From a virus (Duplodnaviria > Heunggongvirae > Uroviricota > Caudoviricetes): DNA of 64,000 nucleotides. The stretch lies in IMG/VR virus record IMGVR_UViG_3300028797_000113, one strand, 5' to 3'. A program made the position numbers and the translations under genes. The notes under the pieces are model-generated. The model was given only the letters and a program-made list of their open reading frames with translations, searched no databases and had not been told where the DNA came from. Shown here one piece after another: positions 956 through 58,158 of the stretch (positions within the stretch are counted from its first letter, which is position 1; each line of letters begins with the position of its first letter).

Positions 956-1210
956 ATGACTACTGTTAAGTTTTACCGCAACAAAAGAAATGAAAACAAG
1001 TATATCGAAGTGCATAACGACGGACATTATCACAACAGCGTAAGACAGTTTATGCTCTGGTCTTGCAGAAAATGGAGAACAGTTCAGTCATTCTGCAAGA
1101 ACTTCACTGGAGATGGACACTTACATCGCTGGAGAAAATGGCATTTAGATGAACTGCTCGAAGATTACGAACCAGTAACAAAAGAAGAATTACAGAATAT
1201 GATTATTTAG
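956..1210 (+). CDS. hypothetical protein
   Basis: SD aaggagg upstream; 84 aa, Trp/Cys/His-rich. Confidence 0.55.
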   Translation: MTTVKFYRNKRNENKYIEVHNDGHYHNSVRQFMLWSCRKWRTVQSFCKNFTGDGHLHRWRKWHLDELLEDYEPVTKEELQNMII

Positions 1211-3979: not shown

Positions 3980-4330
3980 ATGAAAGAAATCACTTTAGAT
4001 GATGTTAAAGAATTAAGAAAAAAGTTTGACGCCTATACGGAAACGGCAGAGCAGCACGAGTTTCCAATGCTTGCCATTATTGACGGCAAAATGCAAGAAA
4101 CAATGATGAAATATGAAGAAGCCGGAGAGGTCACAAATCAGGAAGATGCCAGAGCAATGTTCAGAGTGGTGTCAAGAGTTATCGGAGAGAGTCCGAAAGA
4201 ATATATTGATACGAACGCAATGGAAATCTGTTGGCGAACGGGAGCATATTCTGATGACTGCATTTGCGATGAGTGTATGCACCGAGAAGAATGTTCCGCA
4301 TCCAATGTAGACAATGATGACGAGGAGTGA
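3980..4330 (+). CDS. hypothetical protein with C-terminal Cys cluster
   Basis: 116 aa; CDECMHREEC motif. Confidence 0.5.
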   Translation: MKEITLDDVKELRKKFDAYTETAEQHEFPMLAIIDGKMQETMMKYEEAGEVTNQEDARAMFRVVSRVIGESPKEYIDTNAMEICWRTGAYSDDCICDECMHREECSASNVDNDDEE

Positions 4331-5802: not shown

Positions 5803-5973
5803 ATGGCAAAACCAATACCGTGTGAAATAATATTTAATACCCGCTGGGGATATGAAATGCAGCCTATAAAATGTGCCAGCATTGCAGAGGCTTTAAGGGA
5901 AGCAAAGGAACAGGGTATGGCTTTTAGAATCGTAGTCAACGGAAAGGTTGTAAGAACTGGATGGTTCGTATAG
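5803..5973 (+). CDS. hypothetical small protein (56 aa, not in ORF track)
   Basis: SD aggagatt then ATG 5803; ends with TAG; fills a gap. Confidence 0.4.
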   Translation: MAKPIPCEIIFNTRWGYEMQPIKCASIAEALREAKEQGMAFRIVVNGKVVRTGWFV

Positions 5974-6905: not shown

Positions 6906-6925
6906 GAGTAGATTAGGAGGTAATT

Positions 6926-7930
6926 ATGCAGGGCAGAGTAGAGAATGAAATAAAAACATTCAAGGCAGCAGACGCGGTGGTTAAAAGCCTTCCTCGGTTT
7001 GCAAACGAATGGTACTTCAATATGAAAGCGTCAAGAAAGACGGCATCTTCTTGCTATGACTTTGTTAGAAAAATCAGACGCTTCTTGGAATATATAAACG
7101 AAGACACAATGAGCGTTAATCCCGAGGACATAACTCTGTATGCTTGTGAAAGTTTTTTAATATCTTGCCAGACAAAAAAAGATGAACACGGAATGGAAGT
7201 TTATACGTCCGATTCTTACCAGCAGGGAATGTGGTGTGCATTAAACAGCTTCACAAAGTTCTTAGCAAAGAGAAAATATATAGAATATAACTACATGGAA
7301 GACATCGAGAAGCCAAAGAATAGGGATTTGGACAGAATAAACAGCGAAAGAGTTCTGCTGACCCAAAGAGATTTCAACAAAATTCTTTCTGCCGCAAAAG
7401 AAGGAAGCAATTATATGGGCGGATTATTGAGCAACAGAGATGTTTTGATTCTCTTGTTGTTTATGACTACTGGTATTAGAAAAACTGCACTATCAGAAAT
7501 TAATATCGAAGACATTAACTTAGAAGATATGACACTATCGGTTGTCGATAAAGGAAATAAGACGCACATTTACAACCTGAATGATCAAGTAGCAGAGTAC
7601 CTTGCTAAGTGGCTGAAAGACAGAGAAAAAATCAAAAAGCAAAATTCCCCGTCCGCATTATTTTTACAGAGAGACGGGACAAGGCTTGGCGACGATTCAA
7701 TATACAACATTGTAAAGCAAAGTTGTTATAAAGGAATTGGCAAAAAATTATCACCGCACAAATTACGTTCTGGATTCTGTTCCATCCTTTATAGCAAAAC
7801 TCACGATGTTGAATTTGTAAGACGTGTGGTAGGCCATTCTAATATACAAACAACTCAAAGATACATTAAGACAGAAGAAGAAGAACGCAAACGAGCCGCA
7901 AAAATTATGTCTGATTTACTTAACGTATAA
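6926..7930 (+). CDS. tyrosine recombinase / phage integrase
   Basis: 334 aa; C-terminal HKLRSGF ... VGHSNIQTTQRYI matches the tyrosine-recombinase R-H-R-Y catalytic region. Confidence 0.85.
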   Translation: MQGRVENEIKTFKAADAVVKSLPRFANEWYFNMKASRKTASSCYDFVRKIRRFLEYINEDTMSVNPEDITLYACESFLISCQTKKDEHGMEVYTSDSYQQGMWCALNSFTKFLAKRKYIEYNYMEDIEKPKNRDLDRINSERVLLTQRDFNKILSAAKEGSNYMGGLLSNRDVLILLLFMTTGIRKTALSEINIEDINLEDMTLSVVDKGNKTHIYNLNDQVAEYLAKWLKDREKIKKQNSPSALFLQRDGTRLGDDSIYNIVKQSCYKGIGKKLSPHKLRSGFCSILYSKTHDVEFVRRVVGHSNIQTTQRYIKTEEEERKRAAKIMSDLLNV

Positions 7931-15779: not shown

Positions 15780-15817
15780 TTGCAATTGGTTTTATGTGTC
15801 AGGGAAAAGAGGAAAAA

Positions 15818-17296
15818 ATGGATTTCGCAAATGCTTTAAAAGAAGAAGCAAGAAAAACTTATACTGAGAATGGCGCTCAGGCATACAACACTACGTCGGA
15901 TGCTTTGTTGGACCTTTTCGGTACTATCGGTTCTTTAAGAACCAGAGATTATACGGAAATTGATACGCTTGTTGAAGAAGCGTTCAAGGTTGATCCGTTA
16001 TTCACAATGAAGATTATCTTCTACGCAAGAGACATAAGAGAGGGATGCGGCGAAAGAAAAGTCTTCAGACATATTATTAAATATATCGCAAATAAATACC
16101 CTTATGCTCTTATGAAGAACGTCATTCTTATACCGAAGTTCGGTAGATGGGATGATATGTATGAACTCGTAGGCACGCAGCTCGAAGATTTCATGTGGTC
16201 TGTAATGTACGACCAGTGGTTTAGAGACTTGGCTAACTATCAGGAAAAACAGCCTATCTCTTTACTCGCTAAATGGATTAAGACACCCGATGGTTCTTCA
16301 AAAGAAACAAGAAGACTTGGTTGTTTAACTGCTAAAAAGTTGGGCTATATTAATGCCAGTGACTTTAAGAAACAGTTAAGAGCGTTGAGAAGACACATTG
16401 ATGTTACAGAAGTTAAGATGACCGCAAACGAATGGTCTGACATTGAGTATTCAGCGGTTCCGAGTAACGCAATGACTAAATACAGACACGCATTTGACAG
16501 GCACGACAATGAAAGATTCATGTCCTTTGTTACAAGAGCCGTTAATGGCGAAGTAAAGATAAATTCATCTACACTTTATCCATACGACATCGTTGAAAAA
16601 TCATTGTATTATCAAGACAAATCAGATGTTCTTGAAGCGCAATGGAGACAGTTGCCTAATTATGTAGAACCCGGAACCAATGCAATGATAATTGCAGATG
16701 TATCTGGCTCAATGTCTGGAAGACCTATGGCAACATCAATTGGACTTGCAATGTATTTTGCAGAGAGAAATGTTGGTGCATATCATAATTTATTTATGAC
16801 GTTTTCTTCTAATCCCGAGGTTGTTACTCTTAAGGGCGACACCTTAGAACAAAAGATACAGTTTATACACAATGTAAACTGGGGCGGATCGACAAATCTC
16901 GAAGCAGCATTCAAACTTATTCTTGACATCGCCATTAAAAACAATATTCCTTCAGAGGAAATGGTTAAGTCATTAATCATCGTATCTGATATGGAAATTG
17001 ATATGGCAACATCAGGATGGGGAACTCCTACTTCATCAGAAACTTGGTCGTTCTACGATACAATGAGAAATTTATATCACAGAAACGGATATGAAATTCC
17101 TAATGTTGTGTTCTGGAATGTTAATTCAAGGCACGACGTATTCCACGTGGACGCTAAGAGAAAAGGCGTGCAGTTATGCTCAGGTTCATCTATCAATACA
17201 TTTAAACAGTTAATGGGTTGTATAGGTATGACGCCTGTTGAGATGATGAATAAAATAATCAACTCAGAAAGATACGCCGAAATAAAAATAGAATAA
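15818..17296 (+). CDS. vWA-domain protein with alpha-helical N-domain (DUF2828-like; Ro60/TROVE-like architecture)
   Basis: 492 aa; N-terminal TENGAQAYNTTSDALLDLF; MIIADVSGSMSG MIDAS motif (DxSxS) near aa 300. Confidence 0.6.
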   Translation: MDFANALKEEARKTYTENGAQAYNTTSDALLDLFGTIGSLRTRDYTEIDTLVEEAFKVDPLFTMKIIFYARDIREGCGERKVFRHIIKYIANKYPYALMKNVILIPKFGRWDDMYELVGTQLEDFMWSVMYDQWFRDLANYQEKQPISLLAKWIKTPDGSSKETRRLGCLTAKKLGYINASDFKKQLRALRRHIDVTEVKMTANEWSDIEYSAVPSNAMTKYRHAFDRHDNERFMSFVTRAVNGEVKINSSTLYPYDIVEKSLYYQDKSDVLEAQWRQLPNYVEPGTNAMIIADVSGSMSGRPMATSIGLAMYFAERNVGAYHNLFMTFSSNPEVVTLKGDTLEQKIQFIHNVNWGGSTNLEAAFKLILDIAIKNNIPSEEMVKSLIIVSDMEIDMATSGWGTPTSSETWSFYDTMRNLYHRNGYEIPNVVFWNVNSRHDVFHVDAKRKGVQLCSGSSINTFKQLMGCIGMTPVEMMNKIINSERYAEIKIE

Positions 17297-17498: not shown

Positions 17499-17571
17499 GG
17501 AGGTATAGCTCAGTTGGTAAAGCAAGTGACTGTTAGTCACTGGGTCAAAGGTTCAAGTCCTTTTATCTCCG
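17499..17571 (+). tRNA. tRNA-Asn (anticodon GTT)
   Basis: Cloverleaf folded by hand: acceptor GGAGGTA/TATCTCC, D arm GCTC-AGTTGGTAA, anticodon stem AGTGA/TCACT with loop CTGTTAG, T arm AAAGG-TTCAAGT-CCTTT. Confidence 0.8.
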
Positions 17572-17648
17572 CTCGCATAAGAGTTTTGGCTTTCTTCTTA
17601 TGCGACTAGCATCACCTCCTTTGATGCATAAAAGTATTGTTTACTCGT

Positions 17649-17748
17649 TGCACGGTGGCGAAATGGAGACGCAAATGACCGAATAAGCCAGCGGTCATGT
17701 AGCAAACGGCAGACACTACGTGTAGGGTTCGATTCCCTATCCGTGCAA
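17649..17748 (+). ncRNA. tRNA-like element with canonical T-arm/acceptor but aberrant anticodon region (about 100 nt)
   Basis: TGCACGG/CCGTGCA acceptor, GCG-AAATGGAGA-CGC D-arm, TAGGG-TTCGATT-CCCTA T-arm; middle forms ATGACCG/CGGTCAT stem with 10-nt loop plus long extra arm. Confidence 0.4.
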
Positions 17749-17809
17749 GCGTACATTGTGACATAGCGATGCACGTTCAAATTTAAACCTTCTTGAAAAG
17801 TTGCATAGT

Positions 17810-17877
17810 GGCGGAATAGGTAGACGCTATGAAAGGTACAGGTAGATTGAGACTGGGGTTCGAGTCCCCCGTGCCGC
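17810..17877 (+). ncRNA. tRNA-like T-arm/acceptor element without a foldable anticodon arm
   Basis: GGGG-TTCGAGT-CCCC T-arm followed by GTGCCGC that pairs 6/7 with upstream GCGGAAT; 5' part is Leu-tRNA-like (GTGGCGGAATAGGTAGACGC) but has no anticodon stem. Confidence 0.3.
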
Positions 17878-18110
17878 TTTGAGAAATCATTAGGTGAAGT
17901 AACCTTTGGCGGAGCGGTTTCCCGACTGGTAGGTAATATCTCAATTATGTGAGTGTGCAAATCCTCACCTATGCAAACGGAGTGAAGAACAAATGAATCG
18001 GCGACTCAGTGATATTGGCGCATCGGTACCGCGCCCAGCGACGGCTGCAAAATATCAGGCCAATAGCCGAGATGTGTGGCCCGTGGGTGACCTTAACCCA
18101 CACGCTCCTT

Positions 18111-18181
18111 AAGGACGTAGTTCAATGGTAGAACATCGGTCTCTAAAACTGACAATGTGTGTTCGACTCACACCGTTCTTG
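18111..18181 (+). tRNA. amber suppressor tRNA (anticodon CTA, reads UAG)
   Basis: Canonical cloverleaf: acceptor AAGGACG/CGTTCTT, D arm GTTC-AATGGTA-GAAC, anticodon stem TCGGT/ACTGA with loop CTCTAAA (T33, CTA, A37), T arm GTGTG-TTCGACT-CACAC. Confidence 0.75.
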
Positions 18182-18331
18182 GCGACTTAAATACTGTACA
18201 AGATGCCCCAATCTAATAAAAACATATCCCCCCCAGTTATGTTTGTAATCTATATGAAAAACACCACAAGTGATGTGTTCCACTCAAACACATTAACCCA
18301 TTCGAGTGTCGCAGTACAGTTGCTCGAACAT

Positions 18332-18403
18332 TGGGCTGTCGCCAAGCGGTAAGGCAACGGGTTTTGATCCCGTCATTCGCTGGTTCAAATCCAGCCAGTC
18401 CAG
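18332..18403 (+). tRNA. tRNA-Gln (anticodon TTG)
   Basis: TGGGCTG TC GCC-AAGCGGTAA-GGC A ACGGG-TTTTGAT-CCCGT CATTC GCTGG-TTCAAAT-CCAGC CAGTCCA G; nearly colinear with E. coli tRNA-Gln. Confidence 0.85.
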
Positions 18404-18438
18404 TACATTATTAAATTATATTTCAAAGGAGGAATATT

Positions 18439-20383: not shown

Positions 20384-21066
20384 ATGTCTTAGTAGTATGC
20401 GAAGAAAGCCAAAGAGTTGCCTCTGCTTTTAGAGAGCTTGGCCACAATGCTTTCTCTTGTGACATAATTGATTGTTCTGGCGGACATCCTGAATGGCATA
20501 TTAAACATGACTGCATACCATTATTGAATGGACGATGTACTTTTCAAACTTGCGACGGCAAGATGTACACTTTGCTTGGACCGTGGGACTTAATTATAGC
20601 ACATCCACCTTGCACGTTCTTAACAAACACTGGAAACAGATGGTTTGACGTTGAGAAATATGGCGAAGCAGCGATACAGAGAGAAAAAGACAGAGAAGAA
20701 GCAATTAAGTTCTTTATGACCATTGCGAATTGCGACTGCAAAAGAATAGCGATTGAAAATCCGATAGGCGTTATGAGTACACGATTTCGCAAGCCTAATC
20801 AGATTATTCATCCATATATGTTTGGTGATCCCGAGAGAAAAGCCACGTGCTTATGGCTTAAGAACTTGCCAAACTTAGAGCCTACGAACATTGTAGAGCC
20901 AAACATCATTCATTACAAGAATGGAAAAGGAACTGATTCTCCTTGGCACGTAAACACAATGTCGTTACCTAAGGAAGAGAGAACAAAAGAGAGAAGCAAA
21001 ACATTTCCGGGCATAGCCAAGGCTATTGCAGAGCAATGGGGAAAGTTAGGAGGCAATAATGAATAA
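20380..21066 (+). CDS. C5-cytosine-methyltransferase-like protein with degenerate motif I
   Basis: IAHPPCTFLT (motif IV PCQ-like), AIENPIGV (motif VI ENV-like) and N-terminal LVVCEESQRVASAFRELGHNAFSCDI in place of the FxGxGG loop; only 228 aa. Confidence 0.45.
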   Translation: MNVLVVCEESQRVASAFRELGHNAFSCDIIDCSGGHPEWHIKHDCIPLLNGRCTFQTCDGKMYTLLGPWDLIIAHPPCTFLTNTGNRWFDVEKYGEAAIQREKDREEAIKFFMTIANCDCKRIAIENPIGVMSTRFRKPNQIIHPYMFGDPERKATCLWLKNLPNLEPTNIVEPNIIHYKNGKGTDSPWHVNTMSLPKEERTKERSKTFPGIAKAIAEQWGKLGGNNE

Positions 21067-21610
21067 TCAAGGAGCAAAAGCAGATGCGGGCAAGTTGCCA
21101 TTAACTCTTGTGCCGTTAGAAATTATCAGAAACATAGCCGCAATACGTCGCTATGGAAAAAATAAATATGGTTCATCAGAGAACTGGAAAACAATTGAAC
21201 CTGAAAGATACAGAGATGCAATGTTCAGACATATGTTGCTGTATATCGAAGACCCTTATGGCGTTGACGAAGAAAGTGGACTGCCTCATTTATGGCACTT
21301 GGCCTGCAATGTGGCTTTCTTATGCGAATTGCAAAAAGATGGGTTTAAGTCCGGGAGCACTGGAGTAAATATAAAGGATATTAAATGTCTGGATTTATCA
21401 GGTGCAACAGAAACGCAGAAATCGAAATTAAAAGATATGCTTGTTGCATCGGCACAAGCAGAATTACAAGAGTATGGCACTGTTGTAACACCTAATAATG
21501 TACCAAATAGTACAGTTGATGCCGATGGTTTCGACTGGAAGGAAGGCGATTATGTTAAGCCATCCGACAAAGATTACGAAACAAATTTTGGCGGAATGAC
21601 AACGAAATAA
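21059..21610 (+). CDS. dATP/dGTP diphosphohydrolase-like (MazG-like, DUF5664/PF18909-type) protein
   Basis: DAGKLPLTLVPLEIIRNIAAIRRYGKNKYGSSENWK and DEESGLPHLWHLACNVAFLCEL match the N-domain signature of this phage family as I recall it. Confidence 0.55.
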   Translation: MNNQGAKADAGKLPLTLVPLEIIRNIAAIRRYGKNKYGSSENWKTIEPERYRDAMFRHMLLYIEDPYGVDEESGLPHLWHLACNVAFLCELQKDGFKSGSTGVNIKDIKCLDLSGATETQKSKLKDMLVASAQAELQEYGTVVTPNNVPNSTVDADGFDWKEGDYVKPSDKDYETNFGGMTTK

Positions 21611-26808: not shown

Positions 26809-27072
26809 ATGGCAGATAACGAATATATGGATAAATTTAACGACATTTTTCCGATAGGGCGTCCTGTTAAACCGATTAAAGTAAGAGCGTATTGCGGGAA
26901 GTGTATGCTAAATGGTGAGCTTAATCAGTTGGAGCAGAAAGATAACGTGCTTTTAACTGCACCAGTTAAATACCAGTATGTTTGCCCCGTATGCAAAAAG
27001 GAATATACATCCACTATATCTTATCCGTTTATAAAATATGTGGATGACGTGGACATAAGAGAGAGTGAATAA
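26809..27072 (+). CDS. zinc-ribbon small protein
   Basis: CGKC...CPVCKK. Confidence 0.5.
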   Translation: MADNEYMDKFNDIFPIGRPVKPIKVRAYCGKCMLNGELNQLEQKDNVLLTAPVKYQYVCPVCKKEYTSTISYPFIKYVDDVDIRESE

Positions 27073-30327: not shown

Positions 30328-30552
30328 ATGATATATGTATATGAAAATGATATTTACGATAATCCGTCACGCGAAAAAATAAAATACAGTTCCGAACACA
30401 TACCGAGAGTCGGAGAAATTTTACACTTTCCACATATTGGTGGCTTTAAAGTTAAAGATGTTGCTTACGAAATATCTGATGACAGCGAAGAGAATACAAT
30501 AATGTGGGTTGAAGTATATGTTGATAAACTGAAAGGAGAAAACAAAAAATGA
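30328..30552 (+). CDS. hypothetical protein
   Basis: Junction motif gaactgaaaggagaacagaaATG; 74 aa. Confidence 0.5.
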   Translation: MIYVYENDIYDNPSREKIKYSSEHIPRVGEILHFPHIGGFKVKDVAYEISDDSEENTIMWVEVYVDKLKGENKK

Positions 30553-31565
30553 TGAACGGAAGATATACTTATGATGACTTCGAAAGAATGCGTGAGCAAG
30601 ACAAAAAGGAAGGAGACTCTATAGCCAAAAGGGTGTTGAGATATATTGGTTATGGCATAATCAGTGTGATTATTGTTTTAGTAATAGTATGCCTTTTTAG
30701 TTGCTTCTATTCAGTGGATGAACAGCACAACGCAATAATCACCCAGTTCGGACAGATTGTCAAAGTGAACACCGCTGGATTTTATTTTAAAGCGCCATGG
30801 CAGTCGGTTAAGAAAGTAGACATGACCACTCATGGCACATCTATAGGATATGTAATTGAAGATGATTCACAGAAAGGATCATATCCCGTAGACGAAGCGA
30901 ACGGCATAATGATAACTTCGGACTTTAATCTTTTAAATATAGACTTTTATATTGAATACAGAGTGTCAGACCCGGTCGCTTATGTTTATAATTCCAAAGA
31001 ACCCGAAGCCGTGTTAACAAACATAGCATTAGCGAATATTCGTACCATAGTTTCAAATTATACGGTTGACGAAGCTATGACTACGGGTAAAAATCAAATT
31101 CAGGCAGACATTAAATCGGCTATTCTCGATTCGCTTGAAACAAGAAATCTTGGATTATCAGTTGTAAATATAACCATTCAGGATTCCAGACCTCCCGTTG
31201 AAAGCGTAGAGTCTGCATTCAAAGCTGTTGAAACCGCAAAGCAAGGTGCCGATACTGCAATGAATAATGCTCTTCAATATCAGAACAGCGAGATACCCGC
31301 CGCAGACGCTAAGGCCGATGCAATCATCCAGCAGGCAGAAGCCAAAAAGACATCAAGAATTGCTGAAGCCACTGGTCAGGTTGAAAGATTTAATCAAATG
31401 TATGGACAGTATAAGCAGTTCCCTTTTACAACAAAAAAGAGACTGTTCTATGAGAAGTTAGAAGAAGTAATTCCGGGTTGCAAGATTATTATTACCGACG
31501 GCTCTACAGAAACGATGTACCCTTTGGAATCATTTATTAGCACCGAAACGGAAGGAGAACAATAA
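30549..31565 (+). CDS. hflK: SPFH/band-7 protein, HflK-like
   Basis: N-terminal TM; YSVDEQHNAIITQFGQIVKVNTAGFYFKAPWQSV SPFH core; coiled-coil Ala/Gln-rich C-terminal half. Confidence 0.75.
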   Translation: MMNGRYTYDDFERMREQDKKEGDSIAKRVLRYIGYGIISVIIVLVIVCLFSCFYSVDEQHNAIITQFGQIVKVNTAGFYFKAPWQSVKKVDMTTHGTSIGYVIEDDSQKGSYPVDEANGIMITSDFNLLNIDFYIEYRVSDPVAYVYNSKEPEAVLTNIALANIRTIVSNYTVDEAMTTGKNQIQADIKSAILDSLETRNLGLSVVNITIQDSRPPVESVESAFKAVETAKQGADTAMNNALQYQNSEIPAADAKADAIIQQAEAKKTSRIAEATGQVERFNQMYGQYKQFPFTTKKRLFYEKLEEVIPGCKIIITDGSTETMYPLESFISTETEGEQ

Positions 31566-32464
31566 TGAATAATCTTAAAAAGAAATTAATTATATTATTA
31601 TCGGTTATGAGCGTGGGCTTTGTTGTGTTGTTATTATTAGGTATCATCACATTCTTTTCTTCAACATACACGGTTAAACCCAATGAAACTGCCATCGTTG
31701 TACGATTAGGCAAGGCTCAATCATCAGTAAATACCGCCGGACTTCACTTCCACGCACCGTTTATTGAGAGTACAACGAAGATTTATACTGGCGATATGCT
31801 TTATGACATTCCTGTATCGGATGTTATTACGGCTGACAAGAAAACAATGATCGCTGACTGTTATGTTATTTGGTCGGTAACTGATTCTGTCAAATATTAT
31901 CAGACGCTAGGTGCCATTCAGGGAAGAGGAGAAGAAAGGGTTGAAGCGGCCGTATTTAATGCCGTTAAGAATACCATCTCTTCAATGACTCAGGACAACA
32001 TTATCGCCTCCAGAGGTTCAACACTTACGGATGAAATTACCACAGCGTCCAACTCGGATATATCACAGTATGGTATCACTATTGAGTTGGCAGAGATCAA
32101 AACTCTTGATTTACCAGACGATAATAAAAATGCGGTTTACGAGAGAATGATTTCGGAAAGAAATAACATTGCCGCAGGCTATACCGCTAAAGGCGATGCT
32201 GAAGCACAGAAGATTAAGAACAATACAGACAAGCAAGTATCTATTACTGTAGCAAATGCCGAAGCCGAAGCAGCCAAAATCGAAGCGGAAGGCGAAGCTG
32301 AGTATATGAAAATCTTGTCGGATGCCTATAACGACCCCGACAAAGCAGACTTCTACAATTTTGTAAGAAGTCTTGACGCTCTCAATTCTCTTAAGAGCAG
32401 CGATGCAACAATTATTTTAGATAAAGATTCTGAATATGCCCGAATACTTTACGGCGCAGAATAA
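31565..32464 (+). CDS. hflC: SPFH/band-7 protein, HflC-like
   Basis: N-terminal TM; YTVKPNETAIVVRLGKAQSSVNTAGLHFHAPFIEST; ATGA-coupled to the hflK-like gene. Confidence 0.75.
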   Translation: MNNLKKKLIILLSVMSVGFVVLLLLGIITFFSSTYTVKPNETAIVVRLGKAQSSVNTAGLHFHAPFIESTTKIYTGDMLYDIPVSDVITADKKTMIADCYVIWSVTDSVKYYQTLGAIQGRGEERVEAAVFNAVKNTISSMTQDNIIASRGSTLTDEITTASNSDISQYGITIELAEIKTLDLPDDNKNAVYERMISERNNIAAGYTAKGDAEAQKIKNNTDKQVSITVANAEAEAAKIEAEGEAEYMKILSDAYNDPDKADFYNFVRSLDALNSLKSSDATIILDKDSEYARILYGAE

Positions 32465-33510: not shown

Positions 33511-34224
33511 ATGTACATTTTAAAAACTTGGCGTGATCCGTACGACGACGGTTTTAATGTTTGTACTCGTAGAGAGATAACATTCAATGAAGGACTTACA
33601 GTTCTCGTCGGCTGTAATGGCTATGGCAAGACGACGACGCTATTAAACCTAAAAGAAATGTTGAGAAAAGAGAAGATACCTTGCTATATGTTCGACAATC
33701 TGCACGACGGTGGCAGTAATTCTCTCAGTTCTGCCATTTATTATGGCAATATAGACATGGCGTGTGGACTGATGTGTTCGTCTGAAGGCGAAAGAATCAC
33801 TGGTAACATAAGTCAGGTCGCTGGCGGTTTAAAACAGTTCTTAGACACTGGAAACCATCCGATGAACAGAAATCCCTTTGCTGCGTTTTTCGATAAAGAC
33901 GATGAGCCTATTACAAGCAACAAAAGATTTCTCTTAATGGATGCCGTTGACTCTGGCTCAAGTATTGACAACGTCATTGAACTTAAAGAGTTATTCGATT
34001 TAATACTCGAAGACTCCAAGAAGCAGGGCTTAGAAACCTACATTATCGTTTCTTGTAACGAGTATGAGTTAGCAAATGGAACGCCTTGTATGGATATTCG
34101 CAATGGCAATTACATAAACTTCAAGGACTACAATGACTTCAAGAAGTTTGTTCTTAAGACGCGTAAGATTAAAGACGTGAGATACGAAAAAATAAATGCA
34201 AGGAGGGAAAAAGAAAATGCCTGA
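33511..34224 (+). CDS. small ABC/AAA_21-type ATPase
   Basis: Walker A LVGCNGYGKTTT; Walker B-like RFLLMDAVDSGSS; 237 aa. Confidence 0.65.
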   Translation: MYILKTWRDPYDDGFNVCTRREITFNEGLTVLVGCNGYGKTTTLLNLKEMLRKEKIPCYMFDNLHDGGSNSLSSAIYYGNIDMACGLMCSSEGERITGNISQVAGGLKQFLDTGNHPMNRNPFAAFFDKDDEPITSNKRFLLMDAVDSGSSIDNVIELKELFDLILEDSKKQGLETYIIVSCNEYELANGTPCMDIRNGNYINFKDYNDFKKFVLKTRKIKDVRYEKINARREKENA

Positions 34225-34786
34225 TTATACAATAACTACAGAAGCCGATATTGATAAATTATTAAAAGGGACCGTTAAGCTGGTCACGAAAGACTATGTC
34301 ATCTATAAGCGTGACTGGTTGGGCGAGCATATCGATCAAGAAGCCGAACTTATTAAATCGTATGCACAATACAAAAAAACTTTTAATCAAATCGAACAGT
34401 CGGAAGAGCAATTTAAAAAATGTGACAAGAAAATATCTTGCGAGAATTGCTTCACAAGTAATCAATGCAAGTTTTATTTGAACCTGATTCAGAAAAAAGT
34501 CAAAAAGGTTATCGAAACCCACGAAAGATACAAAGACTTCAAACTCGTTGAACCTACGCCTCTCAAAGATTTGTATGAAGGACAGAACTTTGATGTCATT
34601 CAATTCCACACAATTCTGGGTGACAGTTGTATTACTGGTTTTTGTGGTCAATGTTCGTGGAAAGATGGTATGCTTGAATCGTTAGACGGCGATTCATACT
34701 ATGCAAATACTATTGTGTATGCTGAAAGTAAATTCCAGACCGATGAAGGAAAGAATTGCGTAGACATATTGGTTAATGAATGGTAG
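34217..34786 (+). CDS. Cys-rich protein downstream of the ATPase
   Basis: SD aaggagggaaaaag then ATG 34217; CDKKISCENCFTSNQC...CITGFCGQCSW. Confidence 0.5.
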   Translation: MPDYTITTEADIDKLLKGTVKLVTKDYVIYKRDWLGEHIDQEAELIKSYAQYKKTFNQIEQSEEQFKKCDKKISCENCFTSNQCKFYLNLIQKKVKKVIETHERYKDFKLVEPTPLKDLYEGQNFDVIQFHTILGDSCITGFCGQCSWKDGMLESLDGDSYYANTIVYAESKFQTDEGKNCVDILVNEW

Positions 34787-34795: not shown

Positions 34796-35152
34796 ATGAA
34801 ACAATTAAAGAACTGTCCGAACTGCGGTGGCATCCTTGATGATGAAGGCAGATGTATGTACTGCAAATCAAAGGTATATGACCTTACGGGTATGAGAATT
34901 GACTTAGACACCAGAGATATTGTCTTACTTAAGTTTAAATCGCAAGGGCGCGAGATAATATACAAGGCATTTCCTACAACAATAAGCGTCGAGCATCATA
35001 TGGACCCGATTTGCTGCGCTTCGGGGTTCGGGCCGCAATATATAATGACCGCTCTGCCTGACATAGATTTAAACCTTGAATTTAGAGCGACGCCTTATAT
35101 TAATGAGAACGGTGACACCGTTGTGTGCGAATCAAGACTAGTGGAGGAATAA
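34796..35152 (+). CDS. N-terminal zinc-ribbon protein
   Basis: SD ggaggttgg; CPNCGG...CMYCKS. Confidence 0.5.
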   Translation: MKQLKNCPNCGGILDDEGRCMYCKSKVYDLTGMRIDLDTRDIVLLKFKSQGREIIYKAFPTTISVEHHMDPICCASGFGPQYIMTALPDIDLNLEFRATPYINENGDTVVCESRLVEE

Positions 35153-35154: not shown

Positions 35155-35415
35155 ATGAAATGCCCAGACGTAAAGAAATTAAAACCTCTCGTAAAGAATG
35201 GTCAAGAAAAACACAGAAGAAAAGTGTTAAAAGATACCATCAGTGGCATCAAGTGGAGTGCTTCTCAAGGCGATATTGATAGAGAATTTCTAATGAGTTC
35301 TGATGAAGATGTTCAATATTGTGCTGAATTTTTACAACAGAGAGGTTATAAAACAATAGCCAGTCGCGGTGCTTTAGGTTGCCCATTGTTATATGTCAAA
35401 TGGGGAGAAAAATAG
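35155..35415 (+). CDS. hypothetical protein
   Basis: SD ggaggaataaat then ATG 35155. Confidence 0.45.
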   Translation: MKCPDVKKLKPLVKNGQEKHRRKVLKDTISGIKWSASQGDIDREFLMSSDEDVQYCAEFLQQRGYKTIASRGALGCPLLYVKWGEK

Positions 35416-39339: not shown

Positions 39340-39590
39340 CAAATCAAGAAGCAATAGAAGTATTAAAGTTAAACAATCCGTTTATGGCGGGCAAAGATAA
39401 AGAAAACTTTTCAAAGGCGATTGATAAAGGCATAGAAGCACTTGAGAATCAGAAGATAGGACATTGGATAAAAGACGAAATGAGCATAATGTTTGACATT
39501 TGGGTATGTTCTGAATGTGGCGGTGGTGGAGATAAACATTTTAAATATTGTCCTCATTGTGGGGCAAAGATGGAAGGAGAGAAGAAATGA
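39336..39590 (+). CDS. mosaic small protein (EAIEVL...GIEALENQK N-module plus GHWI...CPHCGAKMEGEKK zinc ribbon)
   Basis: Modules as described above. Confidence 0.55.
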   Translation: MTNQEAIEVLKLNNPFMAGKDKENFSKAIDKGIEALENQKIGHWIKDEMSIMFDIWVCSECGGGGDKHFKYCPHCGAKMEGEKK

Positions 39591-40534
39591 GAACAATAAC
39601 AAAAACACATACAGGAATCATCGTTTCAGATGAGGAATTAAAACTGGAATATCTTTACGTGGGAGATTACGGCAAGGAAAACAACATCAAGGCAGACTTC
39701 CTTGGTTATAACAAGAGAATTGATAAGGTCGAACATAAAGACGTCGACATAACCGATAAGCTGGTTGTTACGGTGTCTTCTCAAAAGGGTTGCCCTATGA
39801 AGTGCGACTTTTGTGACTGTCCTAAATATGGTTATCACGGTAATGCTTCGTTGGGTGAGTTAATGTCTGAGATTTCAACCGCCGTATCGTTGTCCGGGAT
39901 TCAACACGGTAAGAGATTGAATATCCACTTCGCAAGGATGGGAGAACCTACATTCAATCCGAATGTTATTCAGGCAGCGAGAATAGCCTATTATACTTTC
40001 AAGAGACAGTTTGACGAATATCATCCCGTCGTATCTACAATGTGTCCAAAGAGCAATAAAAACTTGGCAGACTTTTTATACAAATGGGTAGATGCAGGTT
40101 ATGTGTTTGGTGGTGACGACGGTTACGGCCTTCAGTTTTCTATTAACACTCTCGACGAAGAAGCTCGTAATAAAGCATTTAATAATATGTCTCTTTCTTT
40201 ACAGGAAATCGGCGATTTAATCCAAGAGTTACCCGACCCGAAGAAAAGAAAATTTACTCTGAACTTTGCCGTAACATCCGAAAGCAATCTTGATCCGGTC
40301 CTTATGGATAAATACTTTGACAAAGAAAAATGTATCGTAAAGATTACGCCTATTCACGAAACCTTTGAAGCCATCAGTAATGGCTATGAAATCATAAAGA
40401 GTTTTGATGTGTATGAGAAGTTTGAAAAGCCACTTGTCGACGCTGGCTGGGACGTTATCGTATTTGTTCCTTCGGAAGAAGAAGACGCCGACAGAATCAC
40501 TTGTGGAAATTCGTTAATCGCAAAGGAGGGTTAG
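39587..40534 (+). CDS. RlmN/Cfr-family radical-SAM RNA methyltransferase homologue
   Basis: VVTVSSQKGCPMKCDFC (Cx3Cx2C cluster in RlmN-like VSSQxGC context), FARMGEPTFNP (MGMGEPL-like) and C-terminal DADRITCGNSLIA (DIDAACGQL-like). Confidence 0.7.
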   Translation: MRTITKTHTGIIVSDEELKLEYLYVGDYGKENNIKADFLGYNKRIDKVEHKDVDITDKLVVTVSSQKGCPMKCDFCDCPKYGYHGNASLGELMSEISTAVSLSGIQHGKRLNIHFARMGEPTFNPNVIQAARIAYYTFKRQFDEYHPVVSTMCPKSNKNLADFLYKWVDAGYVFGGDDGYGLQFSINTLDEEARNKAFNNMSLSLQEIGDLIQELPDPKKRKFTLNFAVTSESNLDPVLMDKYFDKEKCIVKITPIHETFEAISNGYEIIKSFDVYEKFEKPLVDAGWDVIVFVPSEEEDADRITCGNSLIAKEG

Positions 40535-45100: not shown

Positions 45101-45406
45101 AGAATGGCTTGGCAACAAGAAATTTTAGGATATATTGAACTCACTACTGGCAAGAAAGAAGATACTAAAAAGATTTTGGTACTTGACGTTAAGCCCTTAA
45201 TCGGCCAGTATTCTCCTAATCCTTGGTGCTACAAGGTCGACACTCGTTCCATAGGTACTGGAAGAAGCGCTACGCTTAATGTAGATGCAAGAACGTGGGA
45301 CGCTTACGGTCCGTTGAAATGTTTTGACATAGTAGACGTTGGTCGTCTGGCTAAAAACAAAAAAGGTTATTGGTATATGTATGATTACAGAAAGGTGGCA
45401 GAATGA
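42161..45406 (+). CDS. dnaE: DNA polymerase III alpha subunit (DnaE-type, short form with N-terminal PHP domain)
   Basis: ATG 42161 after aggaaacc; MSNFIFQNYHKHTYWS PHP start, ...SAHAYSVALDSLYQAWLKSHYP polIII-alpha palm/fingers signature; 1081 aa. Confidence 0.85.
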   Translation: MSNFIFQNYHKHTYWSNIKVPDSATSLEEYCKRAVELGHGIICSLEHGWQGHYIECHQLAEKYGLKFVFGTEAYWVKDRHEKDGSNCHICILAKNENGRQAINDILSQAAIDGYYRQSRIDLPLIMTLPPEDVIITTACVAFWKYDDIDSIIKQLFNRFGKNFYLEVQYHNTPSQKQTNKHILDLRKELGIQLMMGCDSHYIDQKGALDRDEFIKSKGMEYPDENDWYMDYPDGETAYRRFVEQCVLDHEQIMEAMNNTNIFLEVEEYDCPIFNHDIKMPTLYADLTQQERDSKLEALIWDKWSEYKKEVPTERHSEYEEQIKYELDIVKTTFHSDYFLLDYAITQLGKKKGGQLTLTGRGSGVSFFLNKLLGFTSVDRISAKVKMYPERFMSPTRILETHSLADIDMNVARQEPFWEAQEELLGFEHSKQMVTFQQLKPAAAWKMYAKSQGVDFETSNAISGQIAKYLKDYAKAKEEADDDEEIDIDILDYIDEKYKDIYLKSEDYLGVISAVSSHPCGSLIYAGNIRKEIGYIYVKSQSSDGMLCCCMDGKWAEKYGFLKNDWLKVNVVEVIYKIFERIGMEPFSSTELIEKCKDDPLPWNLYKQQCTKGLNQVEQPSSSTKVGAYAPKNISELTAFVAAVRPGFKSMYDIFESREHFDYKIPAFDNLLQTDEMPNSFVLYQEQAMLTLNYAGIPMSECYAVIKAISKKRVDEITKNKPIFIDGFQKRLKEDDGSISDIKAEEVAHQVWQIIEDSSKYSFNSAHAYSVALDSLYQAWLKSHYPLEFYETYLNILNKKGAKDRLNKFKEEAEHYFKIYFPPYKFRQDNRSITIDHENNAINNALSSIKGYSNIVAEELYTASAYHDFISVLTYLDGVSIKSAKIIPLIKIGYFSEFGNEKALLKFMDYWDMLKQGNAKQISKDKVDDIIGKYSAYYGNDKNKDGSESKSWKLDADRMPDFLQDILQDCVDNIPAPTYKERMAWQQEILGYIELTTGKKEDTKKILVLDVKPLIGQYSPNPWCYKVDTRSIGTGRSATLNVDARTWDAYGPLKCFDIVDVGRLAKNKKGYWYMYDYRKVAE

Positions 45407-45609
45407 ATTTATTTGACAAAGATTCCCGAGAAACAATCGAAATTATTTTAGCAAGAAGAAAAAAAGCATTCGAAGATTTTCTCTCAAACAGCGGATGTCA
45501 CGATTGCCCCAAGATAATGCATTGCCAAAGAAATGAATTTGAAGCAGAATGGTGTTCTCGTTTTGCTGATTTTTATAACGAGGAATATGGCAAGAATGGA
45601 AGGAGATAG
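45403..45609 (+). CDS. Cys/His small protein
   Basis: GCHDCPKIMHCQ. Confidence 0.5.
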   Translation: MNLFDKDSRETIEIILARRKKAFEDFLSNSGCHDCPKIMHCQRNEFEAEWCSRFADFYNEEYGKNGRR

Positions 45610-46236: not shown

Positions 46237-46400
46237 GTTTTGTAGAAGATTTAATTTCTGAAATGAACAAAGTCAAAGTCTATGACGTAGTAGACAATGA
46301 CAAGCCTATCAAAACGATAGAATGTAGTGTCGTATGCGACATCATCACGGTACTTTTAGACAAGTACGGAATTGGGGTGGACAATGATTTACATGGATAA
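46233..46400 (+). CDS. hypothetical small protein (55 aa, not in ORF track)
   Basis: ATG overlapping upstream stop; overlaps the NifS-like start. Confidence 0.3.
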   Translation: MSFVEDLISEMNKVKVYDVVDNDKPIKTIECSVVCDIITVLLDKYGIGVDNDLHG

Positions 46401-50352: not shown

Positions 50353-50535
50353 ATGGAGCGCGTCGTATATAAATTGGGAGACTGGGTTGAATATATTCGT
50401 CGACACTACGTGGTCGAACGTCCTGAACCCGTAATTACTCACGAAGAAGGTGTTGTCACGAATATTTTCAGACACAAAAGAATAAAAGCAAAAAATCCCC
50501 CGAGAAATCGGGGGTATTTTTTTAATAGTGAATGA
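50353..50535 (+). CDS. possible small ORF (60 aa) running into the terminator
   Basis: ATG 3 nt after previous stop, weak SD; overlaps the 3' end of the convergent gene. Confidence 0.25.
   Translation: MERVVYKLGDWVEYIRRHYVVERPEPVITHEEGVVTNIFRHKRIKAKNPPRNRGYFFNSE
50497..50523. terminator. bidirectional rho-independent terminator between convergent blocks
   Basis: CCCCCGA-gaaa-TCGGGGG then TATTTTTTT on + strand; A/T runs on both sides. Confidence 0.7.
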
Positions 50536-53070: not shown

Positions 53071-53082
53071 AAAACTTCCTCC

Positions 53083-55230: not shown

Positions 55231-55977
55231 CTACCAGTCCCACATATCTGTGACTATCACAACAGGATAGCCATCTAGTGTGTCTGGAATATAAATATCT
55301 AAATTGCCAAAAGCCGCCAACCATTCATCTCTTTTAACAGACGTCACCCACGCCTTGCCTTCTTCGATAGTGTAATTAAAGAAGTTTTCATAAGCGGGAG
55401 GCATAACCAATTGAAGAAGCCTTCGTCTTAACAGATTGAGTTGCGCGCTCATTAGTTTGTCAGGGTTGAACACGGGAACAGGAGGTGGCGTACCGTAGTT
55501 AATAGCATTCTCAATTCCAGTTCCGTTTGTTTTGTAAGCGGTTAATTCTGCATTTGTTTCAAATATCGGGATATTCGTCGATAAAATGCACTGGTCCATT
55601 GTCTTGACCAAGTCTTTCCAACAATACACATTTGCAGGCAACGCCGAACAATTATCTCGCGTGACTAACGTAATAGCGCTGTAGCTTGCCGGACTTGAGC
55701 CTTCTCTATTTTGAGTATAGATTCTGGGATTGCTTATAAACGCACCTCTTTGTATAATTTCTTGCATTGAAAATCCCAGTCGGCCAGTTATAGTACCACT
55801 CACCGTGTCGCATTGTGACATACTATAATCGTCATCATATTCTCTCATTTTATAACGAAAATACACCCGAGGATCGTTAATGTAATCCTCGCCTGTACAA
55901 AGAAATTCATCCGTGGATACGGTTATGGTGCTACTGTAACCACACCCTGTGGTTACTGAATAATCAAAATGAGCCAT
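55231..55977 (-). CDS. fibre-associated protein (B part)
   Basis: 248 aa; C-terminus DEWLAAFGNLDIYIPDTLDGYPVV; ends TAG, in frame with downstream ATG. Confidence 0.55.
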   Translation of the reverse strand: MAHFDYSVTTGCGYSSTITVSTDEFLCTGEDYINDPRVYFRYKMREYDDDYSMSQCDTVSGTITGRLGFSMQEIIQRGAFISNPRIYTQNREGSSPASYSAITLVTRDNCSALPANVYCWKDLVKTMDQCILSTNIPIFETNAELTAYKTNGTGIENAINYGTPPPVPVFNPDKLMSAQLNLLRRRLLQLVMPPAYENFFNYTIEEGKAWVTSVKRDEWLAAFGNLDIYIPDTLDGYPVVIVTDMWDW

Positions 55978-57348: not shown

Positions 57349-58158
57349 CTACATACCACATCCACATCCACCGTTAGAACAGGAGAAGATATTTGTCTTT
57401 CCATATACGGGAACTGCGGGTACGGGACAGTTAGATAATCTTGTATATAAGTTATCTACAACATTATTCTGTGACTGAATAAGTTGTGCTGTTTGTGCAG
57501 TCTGTGATGCATTAAGGGTTGCCATATTAAGTTGTGTTCTGAGATTGTCATTCTCTCTCTTGAAACCGTCTAACTCCAAAGCACATAACTTGTCCAAAAT
57601 GGCCTGCGTATTAGCCGTATTACTTGCTATGATATTGCGAACGCCATCTGTGACCGCTGCCCTGTCTGCACAGTTTTCCGTTGCAACAGTATATTTCAGG
57701 TCTCCAATATTTGCTCTGTTTTCGCAGCAACAATTCTGAAGGCTCATTGCAAGTGTGTTTAACTGTCCTGAGAGTGCCTGACTATCTGCATATCTCTGGT
57801 TCATAGAAGCAATTTGATTGGTGTATGCGGTCTGCATAGCGTCCATTGCTCTGTTGCAATCTGATATCTCAGAAGTTGCAAAACCATTAGAGATTGATGT
57901 TTGAATGCCATTTAACTGGCTTGAAATACTTGCGGTATCAAAGCCTCTGTTAACGTCATTCTGGGTTGCTGTATTCCACATATAAGGAAGAACGCCTTCG
58001 TTACCGCCAAAGCCACCGCCGAATCCGTTACCCCATCCACCCATCAGAGCGAAAAGGAAAAGAATTACAAACCAGCCGCCGAAGCCGTCGCCGAAACCAC
58101 CGTTACTACCACACATAGGAGATACAGGCATAATCATGTTTTGATTGTCTGATAACAT
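57349..58158 (-). CDS. Gly/Cys-rich membrane protein
   Basis: GGFGDGFGGWFVILFLFALMGGWGNGFGGGFGG, NCCCENR, C-terminal CSNGGCGCGM; Gln/Asn/Thr-rich coiled middle. Confidence 0.5.
   Translation of the reverse strand: MLSDNQNMIMPVSPMCGSNGGFGDGFGGWFVILFLFALMGGWGNGFGGGFGGNEGVLPYMWNTATQNDVNRGFDTASISSQLNGIQTSISNGFATSEISDCNRAMDAMQTAYTNQIASMNQRYADSQALSGQLNTLAMSLQNCCCENRANIGDLKYTVATENCADRAAVTDGVRNIIASNTANTQAILDKLCALELDGFKRENDNLRTQLNMATLNASQTAQTAQLIQSQNNVVDNLYTRLSNCPVPAVPVYGKTNIFSCSNGGCGCGM

What the first reader, a model, noticed from the sequence alone, without database searches (positions are those of the whole stretch)
18111..18181. Canonical amber-suppressor tRNA (anticodon CUA) in a phage that uses TAG as a stop codon
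The element folds into a textbook class-I cloverleaf with U33, A37 and anticodon 5'-CTA-3'. It would therefore decode UAG. Large replication and structural ORFs are intact under the standard code, so the phage is not wholesale recoded. At least eight genes in the window terminate with TAG (ending at about 3665, 3976, 5973, 11981, 12351, 38746, 40534, 52447 and 55231 on the relevant strands). The tRNA could drive regulated readthrough, counter a host that suppresses or relies on UAG, or be a relic of, or adaptation to, a TAG-recoded host.
Basis: seen in the sequence. Interest (0 to 1): 0.8.

Follow-up and report, generated by a model that had tools for sequence, protein, structure and literature searches.

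The report
Phage tRNA-Trp mutated into amber suppressor
A large phage that uses the ordinary genetic code carries an intact tRNA that should read the stop codon UAG; it is the phage's own tryptophan tRNA with one changed anticodon base, a kind of thing already reported in phages.

Summary
Window 18111-18181 (+) is a high-scoring tRNA (Rfam 63.9 bits; ARAGORN) with anticodon loop CUCUAAA, anticodon CUA at 18143-18145, and all 21 stem pairs intact.

The phage uses the standard code:
- 17 of 139 genes (12%) end in TAG.
- Coding density is 95.5% under the standard code and 95.8% with TAG read as sense.
- Family profiles and orthologues end at the TAG sites.
- About 20 kb of tail genes contain no in-frame TAG.

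New result: the tRNA is of tryptophan type (A1-U72, G73). Every database match is an annotated tRNA-Trp. The closest relative found (IMG/VR, 116 kb) has tRNA-Asn, tRNA-Gln and tRNA-Trp(CCA) at the same spot. So the suppressor is the phage's tRNA-Trp with C35 changed to U, like E. coli su+7.

TAG stops are no rarer here than in that relative (12% vs 14%). No release factor or synthetase gene was seen among about 35 proteins scanned.

Most likely it causes partial, untargeted UAG read-through. It is either a young, nearly neutral variant or the first step of the published route to TAG recoding. About half of the ~130 kb genome was not visible, so recoded targets there are not excluded.

This is a new member of a known kind, of modest interest.

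The parts
18111..18181 (+). Amber-suppressor tRNA (anticodon CUA) with a tRNA-Trp-type body; discriminator G at 18181; no encoded CCA
   Evidence: ARAGORN; Rfam 63.9 bits; cloverleaf minimum-energy fold; all database hits are annotated tRNA-Trp; orthologue of tRNA-Trp(CCA) in L185
18143..18145 (+). Anticodon 5'-CTA-3' (C34 U35 A36) inside the loop CUCUAAA (18141-18147); T at 18144 is the C35-to-U change relative to tRNA-Trp
   Evidence: Sequence; alignments A2 and A3
17499..17572 (+). tRNA-Asn(GTT), first member of the Asn / Trp-derived / Gln cluster
   Evidence: the same three isotypes cluster in relative L185 and in Gordonia phage GMA2
18331..18404 (+). tRNA-Gln(TTG), 150 nt downstream of the suppressor
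956..1210 (+). Gene ending in TAG (TAGGAGG); read-through would add 6 aa
3492..3665 (+). Gene ending in TAG; read-through would add 20 aa
3677..3976 (+). Gene ending in TAG, in frame with the next gene (3980-4330). phrog_3939 (83 positions) covers residues 1-78, so this is a complete small protein
5803..5973 (+). Gene ending in TAG; read-through would add 8-12 aa
11601..11981 (+). Gene ending in TAG; read-through would add 9 aa
11998..12351 (+). Gene ending in TAG; read-through would add 46 aa
24718..24939 (+). Gene ending in TAG; read-through would add 2 aa
24945..25145 (+). Gene ending in TAG; read-through would add 15-25 aa
26353..26799 (+). Gene ending in TAG (TAGGAGG), in frame with 26809-27072. 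The downstream part matches the separate small family phrog_9369
34217..34786 (+). Gene ending in TAG (TAGGAGG), in frame with 34796-35152
35155..35415 (+). Gene ending in TAG; read-through would add 3 aa
38480..38746 (+). Gene ending in TAG; read-through would add 7 aa
39587..40534 (+). Radical-SAM protein gene ending in TAG. The phrog_24834 profile (336 positions) is matched to position 323 at residue 312 of 315
45403..45609 (+). Gene ending in TAG; read-through would add 15 aa
52447..53070 (-). Tail-fibre adaptor-like gene (207 aa) ending in TAG (TAGAAAGGAGCA). Its orthologue in L199 also ends in TAG. The next gene is in another frame
55231..55977 (-). Tail-fibre adaptor-like gene (248 aa) ending in TAG (TAGAAAGGAGGACTAACTATG), in frame with the 710-aa BspA-LRR gene 53083-55215. 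Homologues are stand-alone proteins of 247-262 aa. Orthologues end in TAA and are out of frame with the next gene
57349..58158 (-). Gene (269 aa, phrog_16490) ending in TAG, in frame with 56896-57336 (phrog_20016, matched from residue 1). Orthologues end in TAA

Best explanation
The element is the phage's own tRNA-Trp gene whose middle anticodon base has changed (C35 to U, CCA to CUA). The result is a structurally intact amber-suppressor tRNA in a phage that still uses the standard code.

Shown:
- It is a real, well-formed tRNA with anticodon CUA.
- Its body is of tryptophan type.
- The syntenic gene in the closest relative is tRNA-Trp(CCA).
- TAG is a genuine and undepleted stop codon in the ~70 kb that could be examined.

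Inferred:
- It is transcribed with the Asn / Trp-derived / Gln cluster in the early/middle (+) strand region and matured by host RNase P and CCA-adding enzyme.
- It is charged by a host synthetase. The most likely is GlnRS, through U35, G73, the weak A1-U72 pair, G3-C70 and G10, as in E. coli su+7. In a host without GlnRS it would be TrpRS through G73 and A1-U72.
- It then competes with RF1 at UAG.

The expected result is partial, untargeted read-through of host TAG stops and of the phage's 17 or more TAG-terminated genes. Twelve would gain tails of 2-46 aa and five would fuse to the next gene.

I see no dedicated target. Its most likely status is a young, tolerated or mildly useful variant, for example one that buffers amber mutations or perturbs host termination. 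That corresponds to the 'suppressor acquired before recoding' stage of the published route to code 15.
For: - tRNA call and fold.
- Tryptophan-type body: all four phage-database hits are annotated tRNA-Trp, with 86% identity to GMA2. An exact 26-mer with C at position 35 occurs in a bacterial tRNA-Trp(CCA). A1-U72 and G73 are seen in alignment A2.
- Orthology: relative L185 (primase-helicase 79% identical, DNA synteny on both sides) has tRNA-Asn, tRNA-Gln and tRNA-Trp(CCA) between the same flanking genes.
- Structural constraint: the two tRNAs are identical at 53 of 71 positions, with six two-sided compensatory stem changes and no mispair in the window copy. A second IMG/VR phage with the same 5' half also has CCA.
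- Standard code: coding density is 95.5% (code 11) vs 95.8% (TAG as sense). Stops are TAA 79, TGA 43, TAG 17. PHROG profiles and homologues end or start at the TAG junctions. Orthologues have TAA or TAG at the same ends. Another 6 kb of structural genes (338, 486, 803 and 1584 aa) is intact.
- No adaptation: the TAG stop fraction is 12% here and 14% in the CCA-bearing relative.
[quoted passage not shown] Suppressor tRNAs occur in standard-code relatives of recoded phages (10.1101/2021.08.26.457843).
Against: - Only about 70 kb of a genome of roughly 130 kb was visible (longest contig carrying a window protein is 129,826 nt). Capsid, portal, terminase and lysis genes were not seen and could hold in-frame TAGs.
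- The six compensatory changes show long-term constraint on the tRNA fold, but they do not date the anticodon change. A long-standing, selected suppressor is therefore not excluded.
- Expression, charging and decoding are all untested.
- An efficient suppressor acting on 12% of the phage's own stops would be expected to carry a cost. That argues for weak activity, recent origin or an unknown benefit.
Confidence: 0.68

Rival explanations
1. Code-switch device. The suppressor exists to translate late genes, in the unseen half of the genome, that contain in-frame TAG codons (code 15 style), as in crAss-like, Lak, Garnet or Topaz phages.
For: About 40% of TAG-recoded phages carry CUA suppressors, and recoding concentrates in structural and lysis genes (10.1101/2021.08.26.457843). 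At least six of the 14 other IMG/VR loci with a Trp-like CUA tRNA gain far more ORF coverage with TAG as sense than with TGA as sense. Roughly half of this genome was not visible.
Against: No in-frame TAG is needed anywhere in 70 kb, including about 20 kb of tail and tail-fibre genes. Coding density rises only 0.3 points with TAG as sense, against a published threshold of 5-10 points. TAG ends 12% of genes, including three late genes. In the window, ORF coverage gains less from TAG as sense than from TGA as sense. No RF2 or synthetase gene was found among the proteins scanned.
Confidence: 0.12
2. Programmed read-through. The suppressor is selected to make sub-stoichiometric fusion proteins, notably the 248-aa tail-fibre adaptor fused to the 710-aa BspA-LRR protein (55977 to 53083, minus strand), plus four other in-frame neighbours.
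For: Five of 17 TAG-terminated genes run in frame into the next gene with no other stop. At two late-gene junctions the window has TAG where both relatives have TAA. The adaptor ends in an LRR-like unit (IPxTLxGYPV) that could continue into the LRR protein. Fourteen of 17 TAGs are followed by a purine, a context that favours suppression in E. coli (own knowledge).
Against: The enrichment is not significant (5/17 vs 18/122, p = 0.16). Every junction has a strong Shine-Dalgarno sequence plus ATG for independent initiation. Homologues of the adaptor are stand-alone proteins of 247-262 aa. In relatives the adaptor and LRR genes are out of frame. The purine after TAG is explained by the overlapping ribosome-binding site.
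Confidence: 0.05
3. Not a working decoder. It is a decaying or non-translational tRNA-like RNA, for example a relic in an eroding tRNA cluster or a decoy or partner for an RNA-binding protein, whose CUA anticodon has no role in translation.
For: The 540 nt upstream hold tRNA-like elements with aberrant anticodon arms. In about 80-kb phages carrying a homologue of the neighbouring RNA-binding protein, the tRNA-like gene that follows it has freely varying anticodons (TGA 22, TCA 14, TGT 9, ACA 5). The phage apparently tolerates loss of its tRNA-Trp(CCA).
Against: All conserved tertiary positions and all 21 stem pairs are intact, and six compensatory changes separate it from the L185 orthologue. 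Its Rfam score equals that of its bona fide neighbours. The loop CUCUAAA keeps U33 and A36-A37-A38. The orthologue in L185 lies in a phage that lacks the RNA-binding protein gene.
Confidence: 0.1
4. It is a pyrrolysine tRNA, which is the label ARAGORN gives it.
For: Only the anticodon CUA.
Against: It has the canonical features that tRNA-Pyl lacks: G18G19, a T-loop UUCGA, a 5-bp anticodon stem, and two bases (U8, A9) between the acceptor and D stems. Its body is of tRNA-Trp type. No pyl genes were seen among the proteins scanned.
Confidence: 0.01

Closest known systems
E. coli su+7 (amber suppressor derived from tRNA-Trp by the anticodon change CCA to CUA)
   Same: It has the same parent isotype and the same single base change (C35 to U), and it keeps A1-U72 and G73. 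The E. coli suppressor is charged with glutamine because U35 is a GlnRS determinant (PMC9976931).
   Different: This one occurs naturally in a phage genome rather than as a laboratory-selected chromosomal mutant. The acceptor stem differs (A2-U71, G4.U69, A5-U68). The host and its synthetase set are unknown, so the inserted amino acid is not established.
Suppressor tRNAs of TAG-recoded (code 15) gut phages: crAss-like, Lak, Garnet, Amethyst, Topaz (Borges et al., 10.1101/2021.08.26.457843; Peters et al., PMC9523058)
   Same: Both are phage-encoded CUA tRNAs placed among early/middle genes, in phages of animal-associated metagenomes with presumably standard-code hosts. Other IMG/VR CUA tRNAs share the tRNA-Trp-like anticodon arm GGTCTCTAAAAC.
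   Different: Those phages have many in-frame TAG codons in late genes and gain 5-10% or more coding density under code 15. This window gains 0.3 points and uses TAG as a stop in 12% of its genes.
Standard-code phages that carry a suppressor tRNA: the Agate-clade phage with a TGA suppressor (Borges et al., Fig. 3A) and Klebsiella phage phiKp24 tRNA-Sup-TTA (PMC8386662)
   Same: A suppressor tRNA in a phage with no recoded genes. It has been interpreted as a step before recoding or as of unknown purpose.
   Different: This one decodes a different stop codon (UAG). The donor gene is identified through a CCA orthologue in a relative. The target stop codon is not depleted, whereas the Agate relative had only 2.7% TGA stops.
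Phage T4 psu suppressors (anticodon mutants of T4 tRNA genes; McClain 1970, cited in PMC8386662)
   Same: A phage's own tRNA gene becomes a nonsense suppressor through an anticodon mutation.
   Different: The T4 suppressors were selected in the laboratory to rescue amber mutants. Here the variant was found in metagenome assemblies, and no amber-mutant target was identified.

Membership tests
Nonsense (amber) suppressor tRNA | A canonical tRNA cloverleaf with intact conserved positions | tested here: met
   Rfam 63.9 bits over the full model; ARAGORN; the minimum-energy fold is a cloverleaf; all 21 pairs are intact
Nonsense (amber) suppressor tRNA | Anticodon CUA in a 7-nt loop with U33 and a purine at position 37 | tested here: met
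   Loop CUCUAAA at 18141-18147
Nonsense (amber) suppressor tRNA | Is aminoacylated and inserts an amino acid at UAG in vivo | not testable with these tools
   Needs a reporter assay, tRNA sequencing or proteomics
tRNA-Trp lineage (bacterial/phage type) | Discriminator G73 and an A1-U72 first pair | tested here: met
   Alignments A2 and A3; identity rules from PMC9976931
tRNA-Trp lineage (bacterial/phage type) | Closest sequence relatives are tRNA-Trp genes, and the syntenic orthologue is tRNA-Trp | tested here: met
tRNA-Trp lineage (bacterial/phage type) | Anticodon CCA (decodes UGG) | tested here: not met
   The anticodon is CUA. It descends from tRNA-Trp but is not a functional tRNA-Trp
tRNA-Pyl | An atypical body: no G18G19 or T-psi-C consensus, a 6-bp anticodon stem, a 3-nt variable loop, and one base between the acceptor and D stems | tested here: not met
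   The sequence shows G18G19, T-loop UUCGACU, a 5-bp anticodon stem, a 4-nt variable loop and U8-A9. The defining features are from my own knowledge
Alternatively coded (code 15) phage | Coding density rises by at least 5-10% when TAG is read as sense | tested here: not met
   95.5% vs 95.8% with my own simple gene caller; thresholds. Only the 64-kb window plus 7 kb was tested
Alternatively coded (code 15) phage | In-frame TAG inside conserved genes, aligning with Gln in homologues | tested here: not met
   There are none in the window. All five in-frame TAG junctions are gene boundaries by family profiles, homologue lengths and orthologues. The unseen half of the genome was not tested
Alternatively coded (code 15) phage | Helper genes (RF2, aminoacyl-tRNA synthetase) near the suppressor | tested here: inconclusive
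   None were found among about 35 proteins scanned. Most small proteins were not scanned, and such genes are rare even in recoded phages

The most novel reading that the evidence does not exclude
The suppressor may be a selected device for programmed, low-level read-through. By reading the TAG at 55231-55233 it would fuse the 248-aa tail-fibre adaptor to the 710-aa BspA-LRR receptor-binding protein. It would likewise fuse four other in-frame gene pairs. The virion would then carry a minor fused fibre species. The TAA-to-TAG differences from both relatives at two late-gene junctions would be the genomic trace of this.
Probability: 0.05. Interest if true: 0.75.

Novelty: new member of a known kind. 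Interest (0 to 1): 0.35.

Why it matters
The published model for how phages come to reassign TAG runs in order: the stop codon becomes rare, a suppressor tRNA is acquired, then in-frame stops accumulate. This phage offers a concrete case of the middle step. The donor gene is identified (the phage's own tRNA-Trp, one base changed), and there is no prior loss of TAG stops. That suggests the suppressor can come first and be tolerated. If the tRNA is active, it is also a natural Trp-derived amber suppressor that could be tested for the amino acid it inserts. The phenomenon itself is already documented, so the finding refines the existing picture rather than changing it.

Tried and rejected
1. TAG recoding in the window. 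I looked at every ORF that lengthens when TAG is read as sense. All cases are either upstream of real starts or gene boundaries with a ribosome-binding site plus ATG. Rejected.
2. Close relatives carrying the same tRNA.
   - Exact or degenerate tRNA patterns in IMG/VR found nothing or other Trp-like CUA tRNAs in unrelated phages.
   - The JGI metagenome scan found only a bacterial tRNA-Trp, and GTDB genomes gave nothing.
   - No second copy of this CUA gene was found outside the source samples.
3. Synteny through the neighbouring RNA-binding protein gene and through SSB. These led to unrelated phages, not to orthologous tRNA loci. The primase-helicase search succeeded.
4. Getting the rest of the genome. 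Exact-protein look-ups returned only short Logan and ENA contigs, 100% identical to the window. They added 6.15 kb on the right and 1 kb on the left. The 50-200 kb contigs were not returned.
5. Theta (HDV-like) ribozyme next to the tRNA, as in recoded phages. No Rfam hit at E <= 1 in 16.5-19.5 kb.
6. Host identification. No near match in GenBank phages, E. coli genomes gave nothing, and the lysin-like protein had no relative in GTDB genomes. The host stays unknown; low GC, strong Shine-Dalgarno sites and a SleB-like hydrolase suggest Firmicutes.
7. Ro60 identity of the neighbouring protein. A PDB sequence search gave only a weak vWA-region hit. Not established.
8. Promoter and terminator scan of the tRNA region: no more hits than in shuffled sequence.

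Full report
**1. The observation**

ARAGORN finds three tRNAs in the window:
- tRNA-Asn(GTT) at 17499-17572
- a tRNA with anticodon CTA at 18110-18183
- tRNA-Gln(TTG) at 18331-18404

Rfam's tRNA model matches 18111-18181 end to end at 63.9 bits (E = 7e-13). Its two neighbours score 64.7 and 61.3 bits. The RNAfold minimum-energy structure is the cloverleaf.

Reading the sequence, the anticodon loop is CUCUAAA at 18141-18147, with C34-U35-A36 at 18143-18145. U8, A14, A15-U48, G18G19, the T-loop UUCGACU, G53-C61 and discriminator G (18181) are all in place. None of the three tRNAs encodes CCA. An independent Logan assembly of SRR10393135 (L179) contains the identical 74 nt.

**2. Does the phage use TAG as a stop?**

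The window has 38% G+C. Genes lie on the + strand up to about 50.2 kb and on the - strand beyond that, and they have strong Shine-Dalgarno sites.

Gene counts and coding density:
- A simple gene call gives 139 genes with stops TAA 79, TGA 43 and TAG 17.
- Coding density is 95.5% under the standard code and 95.8% with TAG as sense. The published criterion for recoding is a gain of 5-10%.

Five TAGs are followed in frame by the next gene (3976, 26799, 34786, 55231 on the minus strand, 57349 on the minus strand). Each of these is an ordinary boundary, with TAG embedded in or followed by a ribosome-binding site and an ATG. Examples are TGG TAG AAAGGAGGACTAACT ATG and GAA TAG AAAGGAGCATTCAA ATG.

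Independent support that these are gene boundaries:
- phrog_16490 ends at the TAG of 57349-58158, and phrog_20016 starts at residue 1 of the next gene.
- phrog_3939 and phrog_9369 are small families that fit the separate genes at two other junctions.
- Homologues of the 248-aa protein are stand-alone proteins of 247-262 aa.
- In two syntenic relatives (L198, L199) the orthologues of two TAG-terminated late genes end in TAA. A third ends in TAG. The adaptor and LRR genes are not in frame there.

A further 6.15 kb beyond the window end, from a 100% identical Logan contig, holds intact genes of 338, 486, 803 and 1584 aa. So TAG is a stop throughout the roughly 70 kb visible, including about 20 kb of tail genes.

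**3. What the tRNA is**

The only GenBank phage matches are annotated tRNA-Trp genes. Gordonia phage GMA2 is 86% identical and has Trp, Gln and Asn genes side by side. The 26-mer GGTAGAACATCGGTCTC[C]AAAACTGA occurs exactly, with C at position 35, in a bacterial tRNA-Trp(CCA). The tRNA has A1-U72 and G73, the bacterial Trp identity marks (PMC9976931).

The decisive comparison is with IMGVR_UViG_3300028591_000122, a 116-kb contig (L185). Its primase-helicase is 79% identical. DNA synteny runs at 64-79% for the genes left of the cluster, for SSB and for the primase. Between the same flanking genes it has tRNA-Asn(GTT), tRNA-Gln(TTG) and tRNA-Trp(CCA).

The window tRNA and that tRNA-Trp compare as follows:
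- They share 53 of 71 positions, including the unusual G4.U69, A5-U68 and C6-G67 pairs.
- They differ by six two-sided compensatory stem changes.
- The window copy has no mispair.

Another IMG/VR phage with the same 5' half also has CCA. The suppressor is therefore the orthologue of a phage tRNA-Trp that has stayed under structural constraint and has U instead of C at position 35. ARAGORN's 'tRNA-Pyl' label reflects only the anticodon; the body has none of the tRNA-Pyl peculiarities.

**4. How it most likely works**

These steps are inferred, not shown. The tRNA sits in the early/middle gene block between an RNA-binding-protein gene and SSB, and is probably made as part of the tRNA cluster.

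U35 is the main GlnRS determinant, and the E. coli amber suppressor of tRNA-Trp is charged with glutamine. This tRNA also offers G73, a weak 1-72 pair, G3-C70 and G10. It lacks G2-C71, G36 and U38. In a host without GlnRS, TrpRS (through G73 and A1-U72) is the alternative. The host is unknown.

The loop CUCUAAA keeps A36-A37-A38. From my own knowledge, this is the recognition motif for i6A37 modification and the loop found in efficient amber suppressors.

Once charged, the tRNA would compete with RF1 at every UAG. Among the phage's own genes, twelve would gain 2-46 residues and five would fuse to the next gene.

**5. Is there a purpose?**

I found no sign of genomic adaptation to a suppressor:
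- TAG ends 12% of genes here and 14% in the CCA-bearing relative.
- There are no back-up stops after TAG.
- In-frame fusions are not significantly enriched (5/17 vs 18/122, p = 0.16).
- No release factor or synthetase gene was found among about 35 proteins scanned.

By contrast, at least six of the 14 other IMG/VR loci with Trp-like CUA tRNAs gain much more ORF coverage from TAG as sense than from TGA as sense. In this window TAG gives the smaller gain.

The best reading is a tolerated, probably recent anticodon switch. That is the 'suppressor acquired by a standard-code phage' stage described by Borges et al., but here without prior TAG depletion.

The main caveat is coverage. The genome is probably about 130 kb, and capsid, portal, terminase and lysis genes were not visible.

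**6. Comparison with what is known, and novelty**

The closest analogues are:
- E. coli su+7
- the T4 psu suppressors
- the suppressors of code-15 phages
- the standard-code phages already reported to carry suppressors (the Agate TGA case; phiKp24)

This is a new member of a known kind. What is new is the identified donor gene and the lack of TAG depletion. It interests people working on genetic code evolution but would not surprise them.

**7. Verdict**

Interest is 0.35.

Noticed in passing
window 15794-17296 (+): A 500-aa protein immediately upstream of the tRNA cluster matches phrog_850 'RNA-binding protein' and Pfam DUF2828 + DUF7788 + vWA. This resembles the Ro60/TROVE architecture, but a PDB sequence search did not confirm it. 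The closest relative, L185, has the tRNA cluster but lacks this gene.
   Followed up: partly
window 17649-17748 and 17803-17877 (+); L185 6661-6747 and about 6925-7050: tRNA-like elements that tRNA finders do not call. The first has a 7-bp acceptor stem, a D arm, a long variable arm and a perfect T arm (GGGTTCGATTCCC), but its anticodon arm is a 7-bp stem with a 10-nt loop. The second has a tRNA-Leu-like D arm (GTGGCGGAATAGGTAGACGC) and a T arm but no acceptor pairing. Short identical stretches recur in relative L185, whose copy has the anticodon arm closed into a hairpin. They may be eroded class-II tRNAs or non-decoding tRNA mimics.
   Followed up: partly
L001-L080, about 60 nt after the homologue of the RNA-binding protein gene (e.g. 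L018 7513-7584, L002 7512-7583): In about 80-kb phages, one homologous 69-72-nt class-I tRNA-like gene follows that gene, and its anticodon varies between close relatives: TGA 22, TCA 14 (reads like an opal suppressor, but with C33), TGT 9, ACA 5, others 4. The anticodon does not look constrained, which suggests a tRNA mimic rather than a decoder.
   Followed up: partly
L081 7130-7224, L083 1519-1611, L085 2462-2555, L091 1810-1901, L093 2447-2539: Several IMG/VR CUA suppressor tRNAs with a Trp-like 5' half are about 92 nt long. They carry a conserved insert of about 20 nt (ATATCCCTCTGAAGGAGGTAG) in the variable region. Their flanking DNA looks TAG-recoded.
   Followed up: no
window 50522-55977 (-): Two tandem tail-fibre modules. 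Each is an adaptor-like protein (207 or 248 aa) whose C-terminus resembles a first LRR unit, followed by a 636- or 710-aa BspA-type LRR/DUF285 protein. Both adaptor genes end in TAG. The same layout occurs in relative L199.
   Followed up: partly
window 18349-18367 (inside tRNA-Gln): Two independent Logan contigs break inside tRNA-Gln: L179 ends at 18367 and L175 starts at 18349. This suggests the tRNA-Gln sequence is shared with another genome in the sample.
   Followed up: no
window 39587-40534 (+), 46384-47484 (+), 21059-21610 (+): Three genes that may act on nucleic acids: a radical-SAM protein with weak similarity, limited to the core region, to RlmN/Cfr RNA methyltransferases; a NifS/DndA-like cysteine desulfurase; and a protein with the dATP/dGTP diphosphohydrolase N-terminal domain. 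They could be nucleic-acid or tRNA modification functions.
   Followed up: no
window 30549-32464 (+): Two adjacent SPFH/Band-7 domain proteins (338 and 299 aa) sit in the early/middle region of the phage.
   Followed up: no
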